From IMG/VR virus record IMGVR_UViG_2703718787_000017: DNA of 64,000 nt; one strand, 5' to 3'. The notes below the pieces were generated by a model. The model was not told the origin of the DNA and ran no database searches. It worked only from the letters and a program-made list of their open reading frames with translations. This stretch comes from a virus (taxonomy: Duplodnaviria; Heunggongvirae; Uroviricota; Caudoviricetes). A program made the position numbers and the translations under genes. Positions 54,043 to 63,764 of the stretch are shown piece by piece (the first letter of the stretch is position 1; each line of letters begins with the position of its first letter).

Positions 54043-55550
54043 TGGCAATTCTTGATGATGTGATTGGCGTTTTTTCACCAGGATGGAAAGCGGCAAGGCT
54101 GCGTTCCCGAGCGGTGATCCAAGCTTATGAGGCCGTAAAAACGACGCGGACACACAAAGCCCGACGGGAGAACCGAACTGCCGACCAGTTAAGCCAGTAC
54201 GGGGCCGTGTCGTTACGTGAGCAGGCCCGTTACCTTGATAACAACCACGATCTGGTCATTGGTGTATTTGACAAGCTGGAAGAACGGGTGGTGGGGAAAA
54301 ACGGGATTATTGTCGAGCCACATCCGGTATTACGCAATGGTGCCATTGCCCGTGACCTGGCAGCGGAGATACGTACCCGATGGAGTGAATGGTCTGTCAG
54401 TCCGGAAGTCACCGGGCAGTTTACCCGTCCGATGCTGGAACGTCTGATGCTGCGTACCTGGCTGCGCGATGGTGAGGTGTTTGCCCAGATGGTTTCCGGG
54501 CGCATAAACAGCCTGACGCCTTCTGCCGGTGTTCATTTCTGGCTGGAGGCGCTCGAGCCGGACTTTATTCCCATGACCAGTGATGAGAGCAACAGGCTGA
54601 ATCAGGGCGTGTTTGTTGATGACTGGGGGCGTCCCGAAAAATATCTGGTGTATAAAAGTCGTCCTGTATCCGGACGGCAGATGGAAACCAAAGAAGTGGA
54701 TGCAGAGCGAATGCTGCATCTTAAATTTGTTCGCCGTCTGCACCAGATGCGCGGGACGTCTTTATTGTCCGGTGTGCTGATCCGCCTCAGCGCCCTGAAA
54801 GAGTATGAAGATTCTGAGCTGACTGCAGCAAGGATCGCCGCTGCTCTGGGGATGTACATCCGGAAAGGCGACGGACAGAGCTATGAAACGGATGGTAATG
54901 ACAGCAAGGAGAATGAACGCGAGCTTACCATTCAGCCAGGCATTATTTACGACGATCTGAAACCCGGCGAAGAAATCGGAATGGTGAAGTCGGATCGTCC
55001 CAATCCTAACCTTGAAACTTTTCGTAATGGTCAGTTGCGTGCCGTGGCGGCGGGCAGTCGTCTGAGTTTTTCCAGTACGGCACGCAACTATAACGGCACT
55101 TACAGCGCCCAGCGTCAGGAACTGGTTGAGTCTACTGATGGCTACCTGATCCTGCAGGACTGGTTTATTGGTGCCGTCACCCGCCCGATGTATCGTGCCT
55201 GGCTGAAACAGGCTGTGGCATCCGGTGTTATCAGGCTACCCCGCGATCTTGACCGTTCTTCACTGTATACCGCGGTGTATTCCGGACCAGTGATGCCGTG
55301 GATTGACCCTGTTAAGGAGGCTGAGGCCTGGAAAATCCAGATTCGTGGTGGAGCGGCGACAGAATCAGACTGGGTACGTGCTGGTGGTCGTAATCCGGAT
55401 GATGTCAAACGTCGGCGCAAGGCCGAAATTGATGAAAACCGCAAGCTGGATCTGGTATTTGATACCGATCCGGCCAGTGATAAAGGAGGCAGCAGTGCCG
55501 CAACGAAACGACAGGAGCCGCAGCACACCGACGACCAGTCCGAAGAATAA
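54042..55550 (+). CDS. portal protein (lambda gpB-like)
   Basis: 502 aa; canonical position; acidic C-terminus. Confidence 0.9.
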   Translation: MAILDDVIGVFSPGWKAARLRSRAVIQAYEAVKTTRTHKARRENRTADQLSQYGAVSLREQARYLDNNHDLVIGVFDKLEERVVGKNGIIVEPHPVLRNGAIARDLAAEIRTRWSEWSVSPEVTGQFTRPMLERLMLRTWLRDGEVFAQMVSGRINSLTPSAGVHFWLEALEPDFIPMTSDESNRLNQGVFVDDWGRPEKYLVYKSRPVSGRQMETKEVDAERMLHLKFVRRLHQMRGTSLLSGVLIRLSALKEYEDSELTAARIAAALGMYIRKGDGQSYETDGNDSKENERELTIQPGIIYDDLKPGEEIGMVKSDRPNPNLETFRNGQLRAVAAGSRLSFSSTARNYNGTYSAQRQELVESTDGYLILQDWFIGAVTRPMYRAWLKQAVASGVIRLPRDLDRSSLYTAVYSGPVMPWIDPVKEAEAWKIQIRGGAATESDWVRAGGRNPDDVKRRRKAEIDENRKLDLVFDTDPASDKGGSSAATKRQEPQHTDDQSEE

Positions 55551-55563
55551 TTCCTGGTTCAGG

Positions 55564-57522
55564 ATGCAGGCTGGTCACCAGAGTGACGCGGATATTTATA
55601 TTTATGACGAGATTGGTTTCTGGGGTGTTACAGCGAAGCAGTTTATCAGTGATCTGAATGCACTGGGCGATATCACCCACATTAATCTCCATATTAATTC
55701 ACCGGGTGGCGATGTCTTTGAAGGCATCGCCATTTTTAATGCGCTGAAAACACATGGTGCGTCCATTACCGTTTATGTCGACGGTGTGGCGGCGTCAATG
55801 GCGTCGGTCATTGCGATGGTGGGAAACCCGGTCATTATGCCGGAAAACACTTTCATGATGATTCATAAACCATTTGGCTTTACGGGCGGTGATGCGGAGG
55901 ACATGCGCACCTATGCCGACCTGCTCGATAAAGTTGAGGCGGTTCTGTTACCCGCTTATGCACAGAAAACCGGGAAAACCACCGATGAAATTGCTGCCAT
56001 GCTGGCGGATGAGACCTGGATGTCCGGTGCCGAATGTCTGGCACATGGATTTGCTGATCAGGTAACGCCAGCCGTTAAGGCAATGGCATGTATTCAGTCA
56101 AAACGTACAGAGGAATTTAAAAAGATGCCGGAATCCATTCGAAACATGATTACTCCGCCACGCAACAGTGCTCCACGCGTACAGGATGATGAACCTGCAG
56201 CCTCCCGGACGCCAGTGCAGGCAGCAGCACCCGTGGTGGATGAAAACAGTATCCGTGCGCAGGTACTGGCAGAGCAAAAAGCGCGTGTAAACGGTATTAA
56301 TGATCTGTTTGCCATGTTTGGCGGGCGTTATCAGACTCTGCAGGCTCAGTGTCTTGCCGATCCTGAATGTTCGCTGGAGCAGGCCCGCGAAAAGCTGTTG
56401 AACGAGATGGGGCGCGAGTCCACGCCATCCAATAAAAATACCCCGGCTCATATTTATGCCGGTAACGGTAATTTTGTGGGGGACGGGATCCGCCAGGCGC
56501 TGATGGCGCGTGCCGGATTTGAAAAAACCGAACGTGATAATGTCTACAACGGGATGACCCTGCGTGAATATGCCCGTATGTCACTGACTGAACGGGGTAT
56601 TGGGGTTTCCAGTTATAACCCGATGCAGATGGTCGGTGCGGCGTTCACACACAGTACGTCTGACTTCGGTAATATTCTGCTGGATGTTGCGAACAAAGCC
56701 ATTCTGCAGGGCTGGGAAGATGCTCCTGAAACCTATGAACAGTGGACGCGGAAAGGTCAGTTGTCTGATTTTAAAATTGCCCATCGTGTGGGTATGGGGG
56801 GCTTCAGTGCTCTGCGTCAGGTGCGTGAAGGGGCGGAATATAAATACGTCACCACCGGAGATAAACAGGCCACTATTGCACTGGCGACCTATGGCGAGCT
56901 GTTCAGTATCACCCGTCAGGCCATTATCAATGATGATCTGAATATGCTGACCGATGTCCCGATGAAGCTGGGCCGTGCGGCGAAATCCACCATTGCCGAT
57001 CTGGTTTATGCCATTCTGACGTCTAACCCGAAAATCTCCACAGATAATGTAAGTCTGTTCGATAAAGCGAAACATGCAAACGTACTGGAGAGCGCTGCAA
57101 TGGACGTGGCATCGCTGGATAAAGCCCGCCAGTTGATGCGCGTTCAGAAAGAGGGGGAGCGTCATCTGAATATTCGTCCTGCGTTCGTACTGGTACCGAC
57201 GGCGATGGAGTCTGTTGCTAACCAGGTCATTCGCTCCTCAAGTGTCAAGGGGGCTGACATTAACGCAGGTATTATTAACCCGGTGAAAGATTTTGCGACC
57301 GTTATTGCAGAGCCTCGTCTTGATGATAACAGCCAGACCACCTTCTACCTGGCTGCGTCCAAAGGCTCCGATACGATTGAAGTGGCTTATCTCAACGGTG
57401 TGGATACGCCATATATTGATCAGATGGAGGGCTTCAGTGTGGATGGCGTGACAACGAAAGTGCGTATTGACGCCGGTGTCGCGCCAGTTGATCACCGCGG
57501 TCTGGTGAAATGTACGGCGTAA
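55564..57522 (+). CDS. prohead protease (ClpP/S49-like) fused to scaffold-like linker and major capsid protein
   Basis: N-terminal …DIYIYDEIGFWGV…INSPGGDVFEGIAIFNAL… ClpP-like serine protease motif; Pro/Ala-rich linker; long C-terminal capsid-like domain. Confidence 0.8.
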   Translation: MQAGHQSDADIYIYDEIGFWGVTAKQFISDLNALGDITHINLHINSPGGDVFEGIAIFNALKTHGASITVYVDGVAASMASVIAMVGNPVIMPENTFMMIHKPFGFTGGDAEDMRTYADLLDKVEAVLLPAYAQKTGKTTDEIAAMLADETWMSGAECLAHGFADQVTPAVKAMACIQSKRTEEFKKMPESIRNMITPPRNSAPRVQDDEPAASRTPVQAAAPVVDENSIRAQVLAEQKARVNGINDLFAMFGGRYQTLQAQCLADPECSLEQAREKLLNEMGRESTPSNKNTPAHIYAGNGNFVGDGIRQALMARAGFEKTERDNVYNGMTLREYARMSLTERGIGVSSYNPMQMVGAAFTHSTSDFGNILLDVANKAILQGWEDAPETYEQWTRKGQLSDFKIAHRVGMGGFSALRQVREGAEYKYVTTGDKQATIALATYGELFSITRQAIINDDLNMLTDVPMKLGRAAKSTIADLVYAILTSNPKISTDNVSLFDKAKHANVLESAAMDVASLDKARQLMRVQKEGERHLNIRPAFVLVPTAMESVANQVIRSSSVKGADINAGIINPVKDFATVIAEPRLDDNSQTTFYLAASKGSDTIEVAYLNGVDTPYIDQMEGFSVDGVTTKVRIDAGVAPVDHRGLVKCTA

Positions 57523-58211: not shown

Positions 58212-58790
58212 ATGAAGGGGCTTGAGAATGCCATCCGCAATCTGAACAGCCTTGATACCCGTATGGTGCCACAGGCCAGCGCATGGGCGATAAACCGTGT
58301 GGCACAGAAAGCGGTCTCGGTTGCCACCCGGCAGGTTGCCGGGAATACCGTTGCGGGAGATAACCAGGTGAAAGGGATCCCCCTGAAACTGGTACGTCAG
58401 CGTGTCCGGGTGTTTAAAGCCAGTCCGTCAGGAAAAATGACGGCCAGGATCCGCGTTAACCGGGGCAATCTGCCCGCCATTAAGCTGGGGACAGCCCGGG
58501 TCAGACTGGCCCGGCGTGGTGGAAAACTGCAGTACCGTGGCAGTGTGCTGAAGGTGGGTAAATATCTTTTCCGGGATGCGTTTATTCAGCAACTGGCGAA
58601 TGGTCGCTGGCATGTGATGCGGCGTATTGATGGCAAAAATCGTTACCCCATTGATGTGGTGAAAATCCCGCTGTCCGGACCGCTGACACAGGCATTTGAA
58701 GATGCCCGCGACCACATCATTGCTGCGGAAATGCCGAAACAGCTGGGGTATGCACTGAAACAACAACTGAGGTTATGGCTGACCCGATGA
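58212..58790 (+). CDS. tail completion protein (gpZ-like by size and position)
   Basis: 192 aa, same length as lambda Z; order capsid-…-Z-U-V. Confidence 0.6.
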   Translation: MKGLENAIRNLNSLDTRMVPQASAWAINRVAQKAVSVATRQVAGNTVAGDNQVKGIPLKLVRQRVRVFKASPSGKMTARIRVNRGNLPAIKLGTARVRLARRGGKLQYRGSVLKVGKYLFRDAFIQQLANGRWHVMRRIDGKNRYPIDVVKIPLSGPLTQAFEDARDHIIAAEMPKQLGYALKQQLRLWLTR

Positions 58791-59198: not shown

Positions 59199-59942
59199 AT
59201 GACCACACCAAATCCACTGGCAAAGACGAAAGGTGCGGGGACGACGTTCTGGATGTATACCGGCAACGGCGATGCGTTTGCGAACCCTTTGTCGGACACT
59301 GACTGGCTGCGTCTTGCGATGGTGAAGGATCTGCAACCTGGCGAAATGACCGCTGATGCAGAAGATGACACTTATCTCGATGATGAAGATGCAGACTGGA
59401 AAACGACAACCCAGGGGCAGAAATCCGTTGGTGATACTTCGGCGACGCTGGCCTGGCGTCCGGGTGACAGCGGGCAGAAAAAACTGGTTCAGTTGTTCGA
59501 CTCCGGTGAAGTCTGCGCGTTTCGTATCAAATATCCCAACGGCACTGTTGATGTTTTCCGTGGCTGGCTGAGCTCACTGGGTAAAACCATTGCCTCAAAA
59601 GACGTGATGACCCGCACTGTGAAAATCAGCGGTGTGGGGCGTCCGTATCTGGCAGAGGAAGGCACTGAAACCGTGAGCGTTACCGGGCTGACAGTATCAC
59701 CGGCGTCTGCCAGTGTAAAAGTGGGAGCAACCACCACGCTGACCTTTACAGTAAAACCTGACGGAGCCAGTGACAAAGCGATCAGTGTGCATTCGTCAGA
59801 TCCACAGACTGCCACGGTTACCCTGAACGGACTTGTGGCCACGGTAAAAGGCGTGAAGCAGGGCAGTGTCAGCATTGTGGGCATGACCGCTGACGGGAAT
59901 TTTGTGGCTGTGACTGCGGTGACTGTCAGCGCAGCAGGTTAA
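59199..59942 (+). CDS. major tail protein (gpV-like) with C-terminal Ig-like (Big_2-type) domain
   Basis: 247 aa; strong RBS AAGGAGG; C-terminal …VSVTGLTVSPASASVKVGATTTLTFTVKPDGASD…. Confidence 0.85.
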   Translation: MTTPNPLAKTKGAGTTFWMYTGNGDAFANPLSDTDWLRLAMVKDLQPGEMTADAEDDTYLDDEDADWKTTTQGQKSVGDTSATLAWRPGDSGQKKLVQLFDSGEVCAFRIKYPNGTVDVFRGWLSSLGKTIASKDVMTRTVKISGVGRPYLAEEGTETVSVTGLTVSPASASVKVGATTTLTFTVKPDGASDKAISVHSSDPQTATVTLNGLVATVKGVKQGSVSIVGMTADGNFVAVTAVTVSAAG

Positions 59943-59999
59943 CAGGACGATACTCATCATTTGCCCCGGTTATGCGGGGCTTTTTTGCAGGTGGAGAAC

Positions 60000-60389
60000 A
60001 TGATGTTTCTGAAACAGGACACGTTTAATTATGAAAAACAGTCCGTGGTGCTCAGTGAGCTGTCCGGGCTGCAGAGAATTGAATATCTGACGTTTGTTCA
60101 GCAGCGAACGGCAAAGTTTGATGCCGGGGAGGGAGAACTGCCGGAGGCTGAACGACAGATTGCTTTTCTGCGGATGGGGATGGATATCAATGCCTGGCTG
60201 GTTTCCCGCTCACTGTGGAATGCGGATCAGTCTAAGGATGTAGAGACGCTTTGCGCATCCGTTATTACAACATGGTCGTATGATGCCCTGGGTGCGGGGG
60301 CGGAGATGGTTCTGTCGCTGAGCGGTATGGGGGCCATTGATAATGCCGTGGATGATGAGCATGAGGCGCTGACGCCGGAAAAGTCCTGA
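60000..60389 (+). CDS. tail assembly chaperone (gpG-like)
   Basis: 129 aa upstream of tape measure; GGAG RBS. Confidence 0.75.
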   Translation: MMFLKQDTFNYEKQSVVLSELSGLQRIEYLTFVQQRTAKFDAGEGELPEAERQIAFLRMGMDINAWLVSRSLWNADQSKDVETLCASVITTWSYDALGAGAEMVLSLSGMGAIDNAVDDEHEALTPEKS

Positions 60390-60727
60390 CGCGGGAAATG
60401 CAGTTTGTCATGCGGCTTGCCCGGGAGTTCCGGCGGGCAGACTGGCGGCGGATGCTGTCGGAAATGTCGGCCACTGAGCTTGGTGAGTGGGGCGATTATT
60501 TCCGGATGCAGAGCTTCAGTGATGTGTGGATGGATGCGCAGTTTGCCTCGCTGAAGGCATTGATCGTGAGAATGGTGTCCGGCAGCAGTGATGCTGCGGT
60601 GGCTGATTTCAGCCTTTTACCGGAAGAGAACGGGATACCGGAGCGAACGGACGAAGAACTGATGCATCTTGGGGAAGGTATTTCCGGAGGTGTGCGTTAT
60701 GGACCAGATAGCCAACCTGGTCATTGA
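60365..60727 (+). CDS. gpT-like extension reached by putative -1 programmed frameshift from the G-like gene (G-T fusion)
   Basis: -1 frame opens at 60365 and overlaps the last 8 G codons; A-rich candidate slip site CGGAAAAG at 60376-60383. Confidence 0.45.
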   Translation, partial: GADAGKVLTREMQFVMRLAREFRRADWRRMLSEMSATELGEWGDYFRMQSFSDVWMDAQFASLKALIVRMVSGSSDAAVADFSLLPEENGIPERTDEELMHLGEGISGGVRYGPDSQPGH

Positions 60728-63700
60728 TTTGGGGATTGATGCGGCAGAGTTTAAAAATGAAATTCCCCGTATCAAAAACCTTCTGAATGGTGCAGCCAGC
60801 GATGCAGAACGGTCTTCTGCCCGTATGCAGCGTTTTATGGAGCGTCAGACTCAGGCCGCCCGGCAGACAACGCAGGCAGCTTCTTCGGCTGCAACAGCCG
60901 CATCCGTCCATGCGCAGACGGTGGAGAAGAACGCACAGGCTCATGAACGCATGGCCCGCGAGGTGGAGAAAACCCGCCAGCGCATGGAGGCACTGAGCCA
61001 GAAAATGCGCGAGGAACAGGCGCAGGCCATGGCTCTGGCGGAGGTTCAGGATAAAGCGGCTGCTGCGTTTTATCGTCAGATTGACAGTGTGAAACAGGCC
61101 AGTGCGGGGCTGCAGGAATTACAGCGTATTCAGCAGCAGATCCGACAGGCCAGAAACAGTGGCGGGATTGGTCAGCAGGATTATCTGGCGCTGATTTCTG
61201 AGGTTACTGCGAAAACCCGTGTTCTTACACAGGCTGAGGAAGAGGCTACCCGACAGAAAGTGGCGTTTATCCGTCAGCTTAAAGAGCAGGCAACCCGCCT
61301 GAATCTTTCATCTTCTGAGTTGCTTCGTGCTAAGGCAGCCCAGCTGGGGGTAAGCAGTGCTGCAGAAGTGTATATCCGCAAAATGGAGCAGGCAGGAAAA
61401 GCCACGCATTCGCTGGGTCTGAAAAGTGCATCAGCCCGCCAGGAGATAGGCGTTCTGATAGGTGAACTGGCCCGCGGCAATTTAGGGGCGCTGAGGGGAT
61501 CCGGGATAACGCTGGCTAACCGTGCCGGATGGATAGACACACTGATGTCACCGAAAGGCATGATGCTTGGCGGGGTTATTGGCGGTATTGCCGCGGCCGT
61601 CTATGGTCTGGGTAAAGCCTGGTATGACGGTCAGAAGGAGGGGGAAGAATTTAACCGCCAGTTGTCGCTGACGGGGCATTATGCCGGAGTCACTGCCGGG
61701 CAGCTGTGGACGCTCAGTCGTGCTATTTCCGGGAATGGTATCACGCAACATGCTGCAGCCGGTGCGCTGGCTCAGGTGGTGGGGAGTGGTGCATTTCGTG
61801 GAAACGATATCGGTATGGTGGCGAGAGCTGCCGCACAGATGGAGCGATCGGTTGGCCAGTCGGTCAGCGATACCATAAATCAGTTTAAGCGGCTGAAGGA
61901 TGATCCTGTAAATGCCGCGAAGGCTCTGGACAATGAGCTGCATTTTCTTACTGCCACTCAGCTTGAGCAGATACGCGTCCTTGGGGAGCAGGGGCGGTCC
62001 AGTGATGCTGCACGGATAGCCATGTCTGCACTGGCAGAGGAAACCGGTCGGCGTACTGCGGATATTGATAATAACCTCAATGCGCTTGGCAGTACGCTGA
62101 AGTATCTGTCTGATTTGTGGAGTCGTTTCTGGGATGCGGCCATGAATATTGGTCGTGAAGACTCGCTGGATGAACAGATTGCCGCTTTACAGGAGAAAGT
62201 GTCGCGGGCGAAAAGACTCCCCTGGACGGCATCATCTTCTCAGGTTGAATACGATCAGCAGCGTCTTAACGATCTTCAGGAGAAAAAACGCCAGAAGGAT
62301 TTGCAGGATGCAAAAGAGCAGGCAGAGCGGAATTATCAGGAGCAACAGAAACGCCGTAATGCTGAAAATGCTGCACTGAACCGGATGAATGAAACGGAAG
62401 CAGCACGACATCAGCGTGAAATTGCGCGTATTAATGCCATGCAGTACGCCGATCAGGCTGTCAGGGATGCGGCGATACAACGTGAAAATGAACGTTACGA
62501 GAAAGCCCTGGCATCCGGTAAGAAAAAAACACGCGAAACCCGTAATGATGAGGCCACCCGGTTATTGCTGCAGTACAGTCAGCAACAGGCACAGGTGGAA
62601 GGACAGATTGCTGCTGCCAGACAGTCAGCAGGCATTGCCACGGAAAGGATGACAGAAGCGCATAAACAGCTTCTGGCTCTGCAGCAGCGCATCAGCGACC
62701 TGGACGGGAAAAAACTTACGGCAGATGAAAAGAGTGTGCTGGCCCGTAAAGATGAACTGATTCAGGCACTGACGCTGCTGGATGTAAAACAGCAGGAGCT
62801 TCAGAAACAGACGGCACTCAACGAGCTGAAGAAAAAAACAATTCAGCTGACCAGTCAACTGGCTGAAGAAGAGCGCGCTCAGCGTCAGCAACATGACCTG
62901 GATATCGCCACGGTGGGTATGGGTGATCAGCAGCGACAGCGATATCAGGTACAACTGAGTCTTCGCCAGAAATACCAGCAACAGCTGGAGCAGTTGAGGC
63001 GGGATAGTGAGCAGAAAGGGACATATAACACGGATGACTACAGAAAGGCCGAGCAGGCGCTGACGGAGAGCCTGAACCGACAACTGAATGAGAATCGCCG
63101 TTACTGGCAACAGCTTGAAGTTGTGCAGGGTAACTGGAAAAACGGAGTCCTGCGTGCATTTCAGGATTTTACCGTGGATGCAGATAATACGGCAGAAACA
63201 GCAGAACAGGTGTTCTCGTCAGCCTTCAGCAACATGGGAAATGGCCTGGCAACTTTTGTCACTACCGGCAAACTCAATTTCAAATCCTTCACCTCTTCTG
63301 TGCTGTCAGATATGGCGAAAATCCTGGCGCAGGCAACCATGATGAAATCGATAAAAGGGATTGGCAGTGTACTGGGATTTGATCTCAGCAGCCTTTCCCT
63401 GAATGCCAATGGGGGGATTTATCAGTCTGCTGATTTGAGTCGTTACAGTGGCACGGTGGTTAACCGTCCGACGTTTTTTGCTTTTGCAAAAGGCGCGGGT
63501 GTGATGGGGGAAGCGGGACCTGAAGCCATTCTGCCATTGCGTCGTGGTGCTGACGGTAAGCTGGGGGTTGTGGCGGATATTGGGGGTTCAGGTATGGCGA
63601 TGTTTTCCCCGCAGTACAACATCGAGATCAATAACGATGGCACGAACGGGCAGATAGGTCCGGCTGCCCTGAAGGCGGTTTATGACCTCGGGAAAAAAGC

Positions 63701-63764
63701 GGCAGCGGACTTTATGCAACAGCAGGCCCGTGATGGTGGTCGGTTAAGTGGAGCATATCGGTAA
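60699..63764 (+). CDS. tail tape measure protein (1021 aa)
   Basis: Long coiled-coil Ala/Gln-rich protein after G/T; GGAGG RBS. Confidence 0.9.
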   Translation: MDQIANLVIDLGIDAAEFKNEIPRIKNLLNGAASDAERSSARMQRFMERQTQAARQTTQAASSAATAASVHAQTVEKNAQAHERMAREVEKTRQRMEALSQKMREEQAQAMALAEVQDKAAAAFYRQIDSVKQASAGLQELQRIQQQIRQARNSGGIGQQDYLALISEVTAKTRVLTQAEEEATRQKVAFIRQLKEQATRLNLSSSELLRAKAAQLGVSSAAEVYIRKMEQAGKATHSLGLKSASARQEIGVLIGELARGNLGALRGSGITLANRAGWIDTLMSPKGMMLGGVIGGIAAAVYGLGKAWYDGQKEGEEFNRQLSLTGHYAGVTAGQLWTLSRAISGNGITQHAAAGALAQVVGSGAFRGNDIGMVARAAAQMERSVGQSVSDTINQFKRLKDDPVNAAKALDNELHFLTATQLEQIRVLGEQGRSSDAARIAMSALAEETGRRTADIDNNLNALGSTLKYLSDLWSRFWDAAMNIGREDSLDEQIAALQEKVSRAKRLPWTASSSQVEYDQQRLNDLQEKKRQKDLQDAKEQAERNYQEQQKRRNAENAALNRMNETEAARHQREIARINAMQYADQAVRDAAIQRENERYEKALASGKKKTRETRNDEATRLLLQYSQQQAQVEGQIAAARQSAGIATERMTEAHKQLLALQQRISDLDGKKLTADEKSVLARKDELIQALTLLDVKQQELQKQTALNELKKKTIQLTSQLAEEERAQRQQHDLDIATVGMGDQQRQRYQVQLSLRQKYQQQLEQLRRDSEQKGTYNTDDYRKAEQALTESLNRQLNENRRYWQQLEVVQGNWKNGVLRAFQDFTVDADNTAETAEQVFSSAFSNMGNGLATFVTTGKLNFKSFTSSVLSDMAKILAQATMMKSIKGIGSVLGFDLSSLSLNANGGIYQSADLSRYSGTVVNRPTFFAFAKGAGVMGEAGPEAILPLRRGADGKLGVVADIGGSGMAMFSPQYNIEINNDGTNGQIGPAALKAVYDLGKKAAADFMQQQARDGGRLSGAYR

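What the first reader, a model, noticed from the sequence alone, without database searches (positions are those of the whole stretch)
60365..60400. Putative -1 programmed frameshift joining the G-like and T-like tail chaperone frames
The -1 frame opens at 60365 and overlaps the last 8 codons of the G-like gene, which ends at 60389. The overlap contains an A-rich stretch (CGGAAAAG) that could act as a slippery site, analogous to lambda G/GT, though it is not the canonical GGGAAAG.
Basis: inference. Interest (0 to 1): 0.4.

Follow-up and report, generated by a model that had tools for sequence, protein, structure and literature searches.

The report
Lambda-type G/GT tail-chaperone frameshift site
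This is the expected "slip-back-one-base" site that lets a lambda-like prophage make a small amount of a fused G-T tail-assembly chaperone; it is an ordinary, well-known device, using a slightly off-consensus slippery sequence (G_GAA_AAG) that databases do not annotate in this phage group.

Summary
The G-like gene (60003-60389) belongs to the lambda gpG family. The -1 frame opens at 60365 and encodes a lambda gpT-family domain up to 60727. The 22-nt overlap holds one shift-prone motif, G_GAA_AAG (60377-60383).

- The heptamer lies exactly where lambda has its proven G_GGA_AAG. Homology between the two -1 frames begins at the Gly-Lys of the site, 8 codons upstream of ATG 60398.
- In 25 of 27 divergent clusters, six heptamer positions are invariant and position 3 is only A (19) or G (6). 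The other two clusters carry A_AAA_AAG.
- ATG 60398 exists only in the mEp460/cdtI clade (Leu or Val elsewhere) and has no Shine-Dalgarno sequence.
- One relative leaves only a 13-nt overlap, holding little more than the heptamer.
- No conserved downstream RNA structure was found, as reported for lambda.

It is not new in kind. The phage N15 GenBank record already labels GGAAAAG in its homologous genes 14/15 as the "slippery sequence for -1 translational frameshift". HK225, phi80 and Gifsy-1/2 carry the same heptamer.

Verdict: an unannotated member of a known recoding family, of low interest. One minor curiosity remains: biochemists use this heptamer as a poorly slippery control.

The parts
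60003..60389 (+). G gene: lambda gpG-family tail assembly chaperone, 128 aa, stop TGA at 60387-60389. Some records start it at the adjacent ATG 60000.
   Evidence: PF06894 E=4e-40; TIGR01674 equivalog, 184.7 bits against a cut-off of 74; phrog_42. Homologues begin MFLK with a single Met. PGAP uses 60003 and mEp460 uses 60000.
60365..60386 (+). The 22-nt stretch where the G frame and the open -1 (T) frame overlap. A productive shift can only happen here.
   Evidence: Stop TGA in the -1 frame at 60362-60364 and G stop at 60387-60389.
60377..60383 (+). Slippery heptamer G_GAA_AAG. P-site codon GAA (Glu) re-pairs to GGA. A-site codon AAG (Lys) re-pairs to AAA.
   Evidence: It sits at the position homologous to lambda G_GGA_AAG. 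Positions 1, 2 and 4-7 are invariant and position 3 is A or G only in 25 representative clusters. The same 7-mer is annotated 'slippery sequence for -1 translational frameshift' in the N15 record.
60383..60727 (+). T segment read in the -1 frame after the slip. The first -1 codon is GTC (Val) at 60383-60385; 114 aa; stop TGA at 60725-60727. Predicted GT fusion: 241 aa, junction ...TPEK-VLTREMQF...
   Evidence: PF06223 E=5e-15, phrog_39 E=8e-43, TIGR01715 equivalog. G and T map colinearly onto the fused-GT family phrog_32165. Fusion built.
60398..60400 (+). ATG that databases use as the start of a separate T gene. Probably just an internal Met of GT.
   Evidence: PGAP and mEp460 annotate T from here. 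The aligned codon is CTG or GTG in all other lineages. No SD: -0.4 kcal/mol.
59199..59942 (+). Context: lambda V-like major tail tube protein with a C-terminal Big_2 domain.
   Evidence: PF16461 E=5e-67 and PF02368; PGAP coordinates.
60699..63764 (+). Context: tape measure protein. Its start overlaps the end of the T frame by 29 nt.
   Evidence: PF06791, PF09718, PF24622; strong SD GGAGGT, -10.2 kcal/mol.

Best explanation
This is a lambda-type G/GT programmed -1 ribosomal frameshift.

Most ribosomes translate G (60003-60389) and stop at TGA 60387, making the 128-aa chaperone. A small fraction slips back one base when GAA (Glu) is in the P site and AAG (Lys) is in the A site at 60378-60383. 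tRNA-Lys re-pairs with AAA, which its mnm5s2U34 anticodon prefers to AAG. tRNA-Glu re-pairs with GGA through a G.U pair at the middle position. Translation then continues with GTC at 60383 through the T frame to 60727. The product is a 241-aa GT fusion with junction ...TPEK|VLTREMQF.

By analogy with lambda, the G part binds the tape measure protein and the T part recruits the tail tube protein, and neither ends up in the virion.

Shown here: the anatomy, the homology and the conservation.
Inferred: that slippage occurs, its rate, and the function. The rate is probably below lambda's ~4%, perhaps about 1%.
For: 1. Family and synteny. G and T are lambda gpG and gpT equivalogs lying between V-like and tape measure genes.
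2. Frame. T is in the -1 frame of G, with a 22-nt overlap that holds one in-frame A_AAG motif.
3. Homology reaches the site. BLASTP of the window -1 ORF against the lambda -1 ORF starts at AGKV/CGKV, the Gly-Lys of the proven lambda slip site. That is 8 residues before Met 60398.
4. Spread. Of 200 fetched loci, 134 have GGAAAAG, 61 GGGAAAG, 2 AAAAAAG and 1 GGCAAAG at this position. Two further loci are degenerate: one has no in-frame A_AAG and one has a truncated G.
5. Lineages. Of 27 clusters at 90% identity, 19 carry G_GAA_AAG, 6 G_GGA_AAG and 2 A_AAA_AAG.
6. Nucleotide-level constraint. In 25 representatives, heptamer positions 1, 2 and 4-7 are invariant and position 3 is A or G, never C or T. 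GGC and GGT make up 55% of Gly codons in this phage's late genes, and nearby third positions show all four bases.
7. Shift site pinned. In relative L132 the overlap is only 13 nt (AGCGGAAAAGCGC), which leaves no other place to shift.
8. No conserved start. ATG 60398 is confined to the mEp460/cdtI clade and lacks an SD.
9. Precedent. The N15 record labels GGAAAAG as the -1 slip site in its homologous genes 14/15. Gifsy-1/2 notes call T part of a frameshift product.
10. Slipperiness in E. coli. In the dnaX context in vivo, A_GAA_AAG gave 20% frameshifting, G_GGA_AAG 57% and A_AAA_AAG 81%. These are Tsuchihashi and Brown data tabulated in PMC6787027 Supplementary Table 3.
Against: - No protein evidence of any kind was available here.
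- The heptamer breaks the X_XXY_YYZ rule. tRNA-Glu on GGA has a second-position G.U pair.
- In a reconstituted E. coli system without stimulators, AUG GAA AAG was chosen as the 'unfavorable for slippage' control and gave mainly 0-frame product (PMC6924986).
- No stimulator was found that could compensate. The downstream fold has z=0.08. The RNAalifold consensus is -1.5 kcal/mol with no covariation. The upstream SD-like GAGG is not consistently present.
- In this clade an ATG lies 8 nt after the G stop, so termination-reinitiation could also yield free T.
- Every database record of this clade annotates T as a separate gene.
Confidence: 0.85

Rival explanations
1. T is a separate gene translated from ATG 60398, for example by termination-reinitiation after the G stop 8 nt upstream. 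No fusion is made, or none is needed.
For: The ATG is present in all ~90 loci of the mEp460/cdtI clade. PGAP, mEp460 and cdtI annotate it this way. Translational coupling without an SD appears to be used elsewhere in this operon: the U start at 58775 has no SD and overlaps the upstream gene.
Against: The aligned codon is CTG or GTG (Leu or Val) in every other lineage, including Gifsy-1/2, Fels-1, N15, phi80 and lambda. So it looks like a conservative Leu/Val/Met position, not a conserved start. There is no SD: -0.4 kcal/mol. Homology to lambda T extends 8 codons upstream of it, to the slip site. The heptamer is conserved at nucleotide level. In lambda the G part of gpGT binds the tape measure protein and the T part binds the tail tube protein, linking them, so free T would lack the tether (PMC5009743).
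Confidence: 0.08
2. The frameshift happens, but by slippage of tRNA-Lys alone on the tetramer A_AAG, as at IS3/IS1222-type sites. The P-site tRNA-Glu does not re-pair, and GGA/GGG at positions 1-3 merely encodes Gly in the T frame.
For: A_AAG is the only element invariant in all 198 loci with a recognisable site, including G_GCA_AAG in L185, where P-site re-pairing is poor. A_AAG is a recognised minimal -1 motif in E. coli whose efficiency depends on the 5' codon (PMC5009743). [quoted passage not shown]
Against: If only A_AAG mattered, the T-frame Gly codon should often be GGC or GGT, which make up 55% of Gly codons here. Yet it is GGA or GGG in 25 of 25 representative clusters whose heptamer starts with GG. 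This argues that position 3 is selected for P-site re-pairing or for P-site tRNA identity. The two models give the same peptide and cannot be separated by sequence.
Confidence: 0.25
3. The fusion arises from transcriptional slippage on the A4 run, or the T frame is a decaying remnant with no product.
For: None specific. The A run is there.
Against: Four A's is far shorter than the homopolymer runs known to cause RNA polymerase slippage (established knowledge). The T ORF is intact, matches its equivalog model above cut-off, and is kept in 1846 of 5426 complete E. coli genomes.
Confidence: 0.02

Closest known systems
Phage lambda G/GT -1 programmed frameshift (Levin, Hendrix and Casjens 1993; Xu, Hendrix and Duda 2004, 2013, 2014)
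   Same: The G and T proteins are homologous (33% and 39% identity). The gene order V-G-T-H is the same. T is in the -1 frame of G. The slip site is at the aligned position. The T frame reads Gly-Lys-Val at the junction. No stimulatory RNA structure was found.
   Different: The heptamer is G_GAA_AAG instead of G_GGA_AAG. The P-site tRNA is therefore tRNA-Glu re-pairing with a middle-position G.U, not tRNA-Gly re-pairing at the wobble position. The G stop comes 1 codon after the site (6 codons in lambda). The overlap is 22 nt (61 nt in lambda).
Phage N15 genes 14/15; also HK225, phi80, mEp213, Gifsy-1/2 and Fels-1
   Same: They have the same heptamer GGAAAAG at the same aligned position. In the N15 GenBank record it is explicitly labelled 'slippery sequence for -1 translational frameshift'. 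HK225 names the product 'tail assembly protein GT'. Gifsy notes mention the frameshift.
   Different: These are different lineages: the fused GT query matches the N15/HK225/phi80/mEp213 group at 37-41% identity (tblastn), and the G protein is 57-59% identical to those of Gifsy-1/2 and Fels-1. None of them has an ATG at the position of 60398. I found no experimental demonstration for any of them.
E. coli dnaX A_AAA_AAG frameshift
   Same: The A-site event is the same: the single E. coli tRNA-Lys (mnm5s2U34) slips from AAG to AAA. Two relatives of this family (L149, L186) actually carry A_AAA_AAG at this spot.
   Different: dnaX has an upstream SD-like element and a downstream stem-loop and shifts at ~50-80%. 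Here no conserved stimulator was found and a low rate is expected.
Tetramer or hexamer A_AAG sites (IS3, IS1222 G_CGA_AAG, Bacillus cdd A_CGA_AAG)
   Same: They have a non-XXX P-site codon followed by A_AAG, and efficiency depends on the 5' codon (PMC5009743).
   Different: In my recollection (not checked here) the IS sites rely on downstream structures. The gene family and purpose are different.

Membership tests
Lambda-like G/GT tail assembly chaperone frameshift | The upstream gene is a gpG-type tail assembly chaperone. | tested here: met
   PF06894 E=4e-40; TIGR01674 equivalog 184.7 bits, above the cut-off of 74.45.
Lambda-like G/GT tail assembly chaperone frameshift | The downstream segment is a gpT homologue, in the -1 frame of G, overlapping its 3' end. 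| tested here: met
   PF06223 E=5e-15; TIGR01715 136.5 bits, above the cut-off of 77.35. Frame phases 0 and 2, with a 22-nt overlap.
Lambda-like G/GT tail assembly chaperone frameshift | The pair lies between the major tail gene and the tape measure gene. | tested here: met
   V-like 59199-59942, G, T, tape measure 60699-63764.
Lambda-like G/GT tail assembly chaperone frameshift | A shift-prone sequence lies in the overlap at the position of the lambda slip site and is conserved among relatives. | tested here: met
   G_GAA_AAG aligns with lambda G_GGA_AAG. Six of seven positions are invariant in 25 clusters.
Lambda-like G/GT tail assembly chaperone frameshift | The T segment has no conserved start codon or RBS of its own. 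| tested here: met
   The ATG occurs only in this clade (Leu or Val elsewhere). SD energy is -0.4 kcal/mol.
Lambda-like G/GT tail assembly chaperone frameshift | Both G and a minor GT fusion are produced (about 30:1 in lambda), and both are needed for tail assembly. | not testable with these tools
   This needs protein detection and genetics. No database protein carries the junction TPEKVLTREM.
Canonical tandem-slippage heptamer X_XXY_YYZ | Positions 1-3 are identical and positions 4-6 are identical, so that both tRNAs re-pair with a mismatch only at the wobble position. | tested here: not met
   Positions 1-3 are GGA. tRNA-Glu (GAA) would re-pair on GGA with a G.U pair at codon position 2 (sequence; same reasoning in PMC6924986).
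dnaX-type stimulated frameshift | An upstream SD-like element at ~10 nt and a downstream stem-loop. | tested here: inconclusive
   The window has GAGG (60363-60366) 10 nt upstream. Such elements occur in only 8 of 19 GGAAAAG lineages, 1 of 8 others and ~20% of background positions (p=0.15 and p=0.02, uncorrected for relatedness). No downstream structure was found.

The most novel reading that the evidence does not exclude
G_GAA_AAG, which ribosome biochemists use as a poorly slippery control, is the predominant and possibly ancestral natural slip site of the enterobacterial lambda G/T family (19 of 27 sampled clusters). It would then work as a genuine tandem site in vivo.

Both of its tRNAs (Glu and Lys) carry mnm5s2U34. 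The GT dose of these phages could therefore be even more tightly coupled to host tRNA 2-thiolation than shown for lambda (PMC3296357). Alternatively, it may depend on a so far unrecognised weak stimulator, such as the SD-like GAGG ~10 nt upstream seen in part of the lineages.
Probability: 0.2. Interest if true: 0.45.

Novelty: new member of a known kind. Interest (0 to 1): 0.2.

Why it matters
The main value is for annotation. This exact G/T module occurs in 1846 of 5426 complete E. coli genomes and in phages mEp460, cdtI, PhiR55_1 and others. Everywhere it is annotated as two separate genes, with T starting at a non-conserved ATG. The real product is most likely a 241-aa GT fusion.

A secondary point concerns recoding research. 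Among the lineages sampled here, the heptamer seen in most of them (G_GAA_AAG) violates the X_XXY_YYZ rule and is treated as non-slippery in vitro. It would make a convenient, evolutionarily validated test case for P-site second-position G.U re-pairing, and for the role of mnm5s2U34 tRNAs in setting low frameshift rates.

Tried and rejected
- Downstream stimulatory RNA. The 87-nt downstream fold is no better than shuffles (z=0.08). For 27 representatives, z ranges from -2.6 to +2.2. The RNAalifold consensus is -1.5 kcal/mol with no covarying pairs. Rejected.
- Known RNA families. Rfam gave only chance-level hits at E~0.5.
- Upstream SD-like stimulator, as in dnaX. The window has GAGG 10 nt upstream, but the enrichment across lineages is weak and not corrected for relatedness. 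It may simply reflect the acidic, GAG/GAN-rich C-terminal tail of G. Left as a hint.
- Other shift sites or directions. The +1 frame is closed: only a 34-aa ORF with no homology. No other in-frame A_AAG or XXXYYYZ lies in the 22-nt overlap.
- Annotated fusion proteins. The protein database search gave no entry with the predicted junction. It gave only four singleton in-frame G-T fusions caused by deletions.
- Literature. Searches for GGAAAAG or 'G GAA AAG' with frameshifting found only the Peng et al. control construct.
- Papers not held. Xu et al. 2004 (Mol Cell) and Licznar et al. 2003 (EMBO J) could not be read. I could not check whether they list or measure this heptamer.
- Stop-codon distance. 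A stop 1 codon or 6 codons after the site does not correlate with heptamer type.

Full report
**Observation**

- The G-like gene reads ...GCG CTG ACG CCG GAA AAG TCC TGA and ends at 60389.
- The -1 frame is closed by TGA at 60362-60364, opens at 60365 and runs to 60727.
- The two frames overlap for 22 nt (60365-60386).
- CGGAAAAG lies at 60376-60383. Phased on the G frame, the heptamer is G_GAA_AAG (60377-60383).
- ATG 60398 is in the -1 frame.

The 7-mer GGAAAAG is not rare in itself: 13 copies in the window against 9.7 expected. Its meaning comes from its phase and location.

**What the genes are**

- G (60003-60389) matches Pfam PF06894 (lambda tail assembly chaperone G, E=4e-40) and the NCBIfam equivalog TIGR01674.
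- The -1 ORF matches PF06223 (minor tail protein T), phrog_39 and the equivalog TIGR01715.
- Both halves map colinearly onto phrog_32165, a 290-position family that covers both the G and T parts.
- Upstream lies a lambda V-like tail tube gene with a Big_2 domain (59199-59942). Downstream lies the tape measure gene (60699-63764).

The DNA is 100% identical to phage PhiR55_1 and about 99% identical to mEp460 and cdtI. It is present in 1846 of 5426 complete E. coli genomes. In all these records T is annotated as a separate gene starting at the ATG equivalent to 60398, without ribosomal slippage.

**Comparison with lambda**

In lambda the proven site is GCG GGA AAG in the G frame, read as C GGG AAA GTG (Gly-Lys-Val) in the T frame. 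In the window, CCG GAA AAG is read as C GGA AAA GTC (Gly-Lys-Val) in the T frame. BLASTP of the two -1 ORFs begins at AGKV/CGKV, exactly at the slip site. That is eight residues upstream of the Met encoded by ATG 60398. The heptamer therefore differs from lambda's at one base, position 3 (A instead of G).

**Comparative survey**

I fetched 200 loci encoding gpG relatives from one genome collection and two viral-contig scans. For each I located the G stop, the -1 ORF and the in-frame A_AAG in the overlap.
- 134 loci have GGAAAAG, 61 GGGAAAG, 2 AAAAAAG and 1 GGCAAAG. Two further loci are degenerate: one has no in-frame A_AAG and one has a truncated G.
- After clustering the predicted GT fusions at 90% identity, 19 of 27 clusters carry G_GAA_AAG, 6 carry G_GGA_AAG and 2 carry A_AAA_AAG.
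- A neighbour-joining tree needs at least four changes of state.

These counts depend on how loci were retrieved and are not prevalence estimates.

In 25 representatives, heptamer positions 1, 2 and 4-7 are invariant and position 3 is A (19) or G (6), never C or T. This holds although GGC and GGT make up 55% of Gly codons in the late genes of this phage, and although nearby third-codon positions show all four bases. It is the only fully conserved 7-nt run between -14 and +55.

In relative L132 a TAA in the -1 frame leaves an overlap of only 13 nt (AGCGGAAAAGCGC). That pins the shift to the heptamer.

The codon aligned with ATG 60398 is CTG or GTG in every lineage outside the mEp460/cdtI clade. 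The ATG itself has no Shine-Dalgarno sequence: -0.4 kcal/mol, against -6.5 for G and -10.2 for the tape measure gene.

**Stimulators**

- The 87 nt downstream fold no better than shuffled sequence (z=0.08).
- Representatives scatter around zero.
- RNAalifold finds no conserved or covarying helix.
- Rfam finds nothing.
- An SD-like GAGG lies 10 nt upstream (60363-60366), the spacing that works in dnaX. Comparable elements occur in only 8 of 19 GGAAAAG lineages, 1 of 8 other lineages and about 20% of background positions.

I regard the SD-like element as unproven. The acidic C-terminal tail of G produces GAG/GGA-rich sequence anyway.

**Mechanism**

The most likely event is tandem -1 slippage with tRNA-Glu on GAA in the P site and tRNA-Lys on AAG in the A site.
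- tRNA-Lys moves to AAA, which E. coli's single tRNA-Lys (mnm5s2U34) pairs with more strongly. The estimate is -2.9 to -4.6 kJ/mol (PMC6787027).
- tRNA-Glu moves to GGA, which requires a G.U pair at the middle position.

Relevant measurements from the literature:
- In the dnaX context in vivo, A_GAA_AAG gave 20% frameshifting, G_GGA_AAG 57% and A_AAA_AAG 81% (Tsuchihashi and Brown data in PMC6787027 Supplementary Table 3). A_GAA_AAG has an additional first-position mismatch, so G_GAA_AAG should do at least as well. This is my inference.
- In a stimulator-free reconstituted system, AUG GAA AAG was used as the 'unfavorable' control and gave mainly 0-frame product (PMC6924986).
- Lambda itself shifts only about 4% of the time, and a high G:GT ratio (about 30:1) is required (PMC3296357; PMC5009743).

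A weak site is therefore compatible with function. I expect a rate below lambda's, around 1%, which is inference.

A model in which tRNA-Lys alone slips on A_AAG cannot be excluded. It does not explain why position 3 is never a pyrimidine. Both models predict the same peptide...TPEK-VLTREMQF...

**Comparison with what is known**

The lambda G/GT frameshift and its conservation in tailed phages are textbook knowledge. The non-canonical heptamer is not new either.
- The GenBank record of phage N15 carries a misc_feature 'slippery sequence for -1 translational frameshift' that is exactly GGAAAAG in its homologous genes 14/15.
- HK225, phi80 and mEp213 have GCG GAA AAG at the same place. HK225 names the product 'tail assembly protein GT'.
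- The Gifsy-1/2 records mention the frameshift in their notes.
- The PRFect paper lists a 'twofour' motif class for -1 shifts; its name implies a pattern of two identical bases then four, which GGAAAA would fit (my reading, since the definition is in a supplementary figure I did not open). It separately notes that tRNA-Glu (GAA) can re-pair on GGA if G:U pairs are allowed (PMC10885494).

What is missing is the annotation for the mEp460/cdtI clade, and any experimental test that I could find. No database protein has the predicted junction.

**Verdict**

It is a new, unannotated member of a known kind and of low interest. Two things remain useful. The first is an annotation correction that affects a very common E. 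coli prophage module. The second is the contrast between the natural prevalence of G_GAA_AAG and its reputation as non-slippery in vitro.

Noticed in passing
window 59963-59980 (T run to 59986): Between the tail tube gene V and G there is a terminator-like hairpin, GCCCCG-gttatg-CGGGGC, followed by TTTTTT. mEp460, Ayreon, N15 and HK225 annotate a terminator or stem-loop at the same place. It may act as a conserved attenuator lowering expression of G/T/H relative to V.
   Followed up: partly
L027-L039 (genome contigs): Loci with the same 32% match to the window's G as phage lambda itself. At least 15 of the genome-contig loci (L008-L044) share lambda's junction sequence exactly, but one search does not list which. 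They sit on short contigs, several at ~1x coverage where coverage is given, attributed to unrelated genera (Kitasatospora, Pseudoxanthomonas, Oceanobacillus, Leeuwenhoekiella, Psychrobacter and others). This looks like lambda DNA contamination in those assemblies.
   Followed up: no
P0001, P0002, P0003, P0016 (protein database): Four singleton proteins join the G and T domains in one frame through deletions near the junction, for example ...AIDNA|DAGKVLTREM... These are probably decayed prophage copies or assembly errors. None has the predicted frameshift junction.
   Followed up: partly
L149:1893-1899, L186:1893-1899, and L185 (the same aligned position; coordinates not computed): Rare alternative heptamers occur at the same aligned position. 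L149 and L186 have A_AAA_AAG, the dnaX motif, with an extra Lys in the T frame. L185 has G_GCA_AAG, a single variant inside an otherwise GGAAAAG cluster.
   Followed up: partly
window 60376: The base just 5' of the heptamer is C in 23 of 25 representative clusters (T in 2). The T-frame amino acid there varies (A, C, H, R, G, S...), while the G-frame residue is Pro, Ala or Thr. This could be an extended slip-site context (E-site codon NCG), or just selection for a small residue in the G tail.
   Followed up: no
window 60363-60366: An SD-like GAGG lies 10 nt upstream of the heptamer, the spacing that stimulates dnaX frameshifting. It is present in part of the GGAAAAG lineages only, and the statistics are weak.
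   Followed up: partly
window 60000-60005: There is a tandem ATG ATG at the start of G. PGAP starts at 60003 and the mEp460 record at 60000. Homologues have a single Met (MFLK...), and the SD core (GGAG, 59993-59996) lies only 3 nt before ATG 60000 but 6 nt before ATG 60003 (sequence), so 60003 is the likelier start.
   Followed up: partly
window 55303-57522: A long ORF upstream (739 aa as listed) appears from its translation to join a ClpP-like prohead protease segment to a major capsid protein segment. This was not tested with any profile search here.
   Followed up: no
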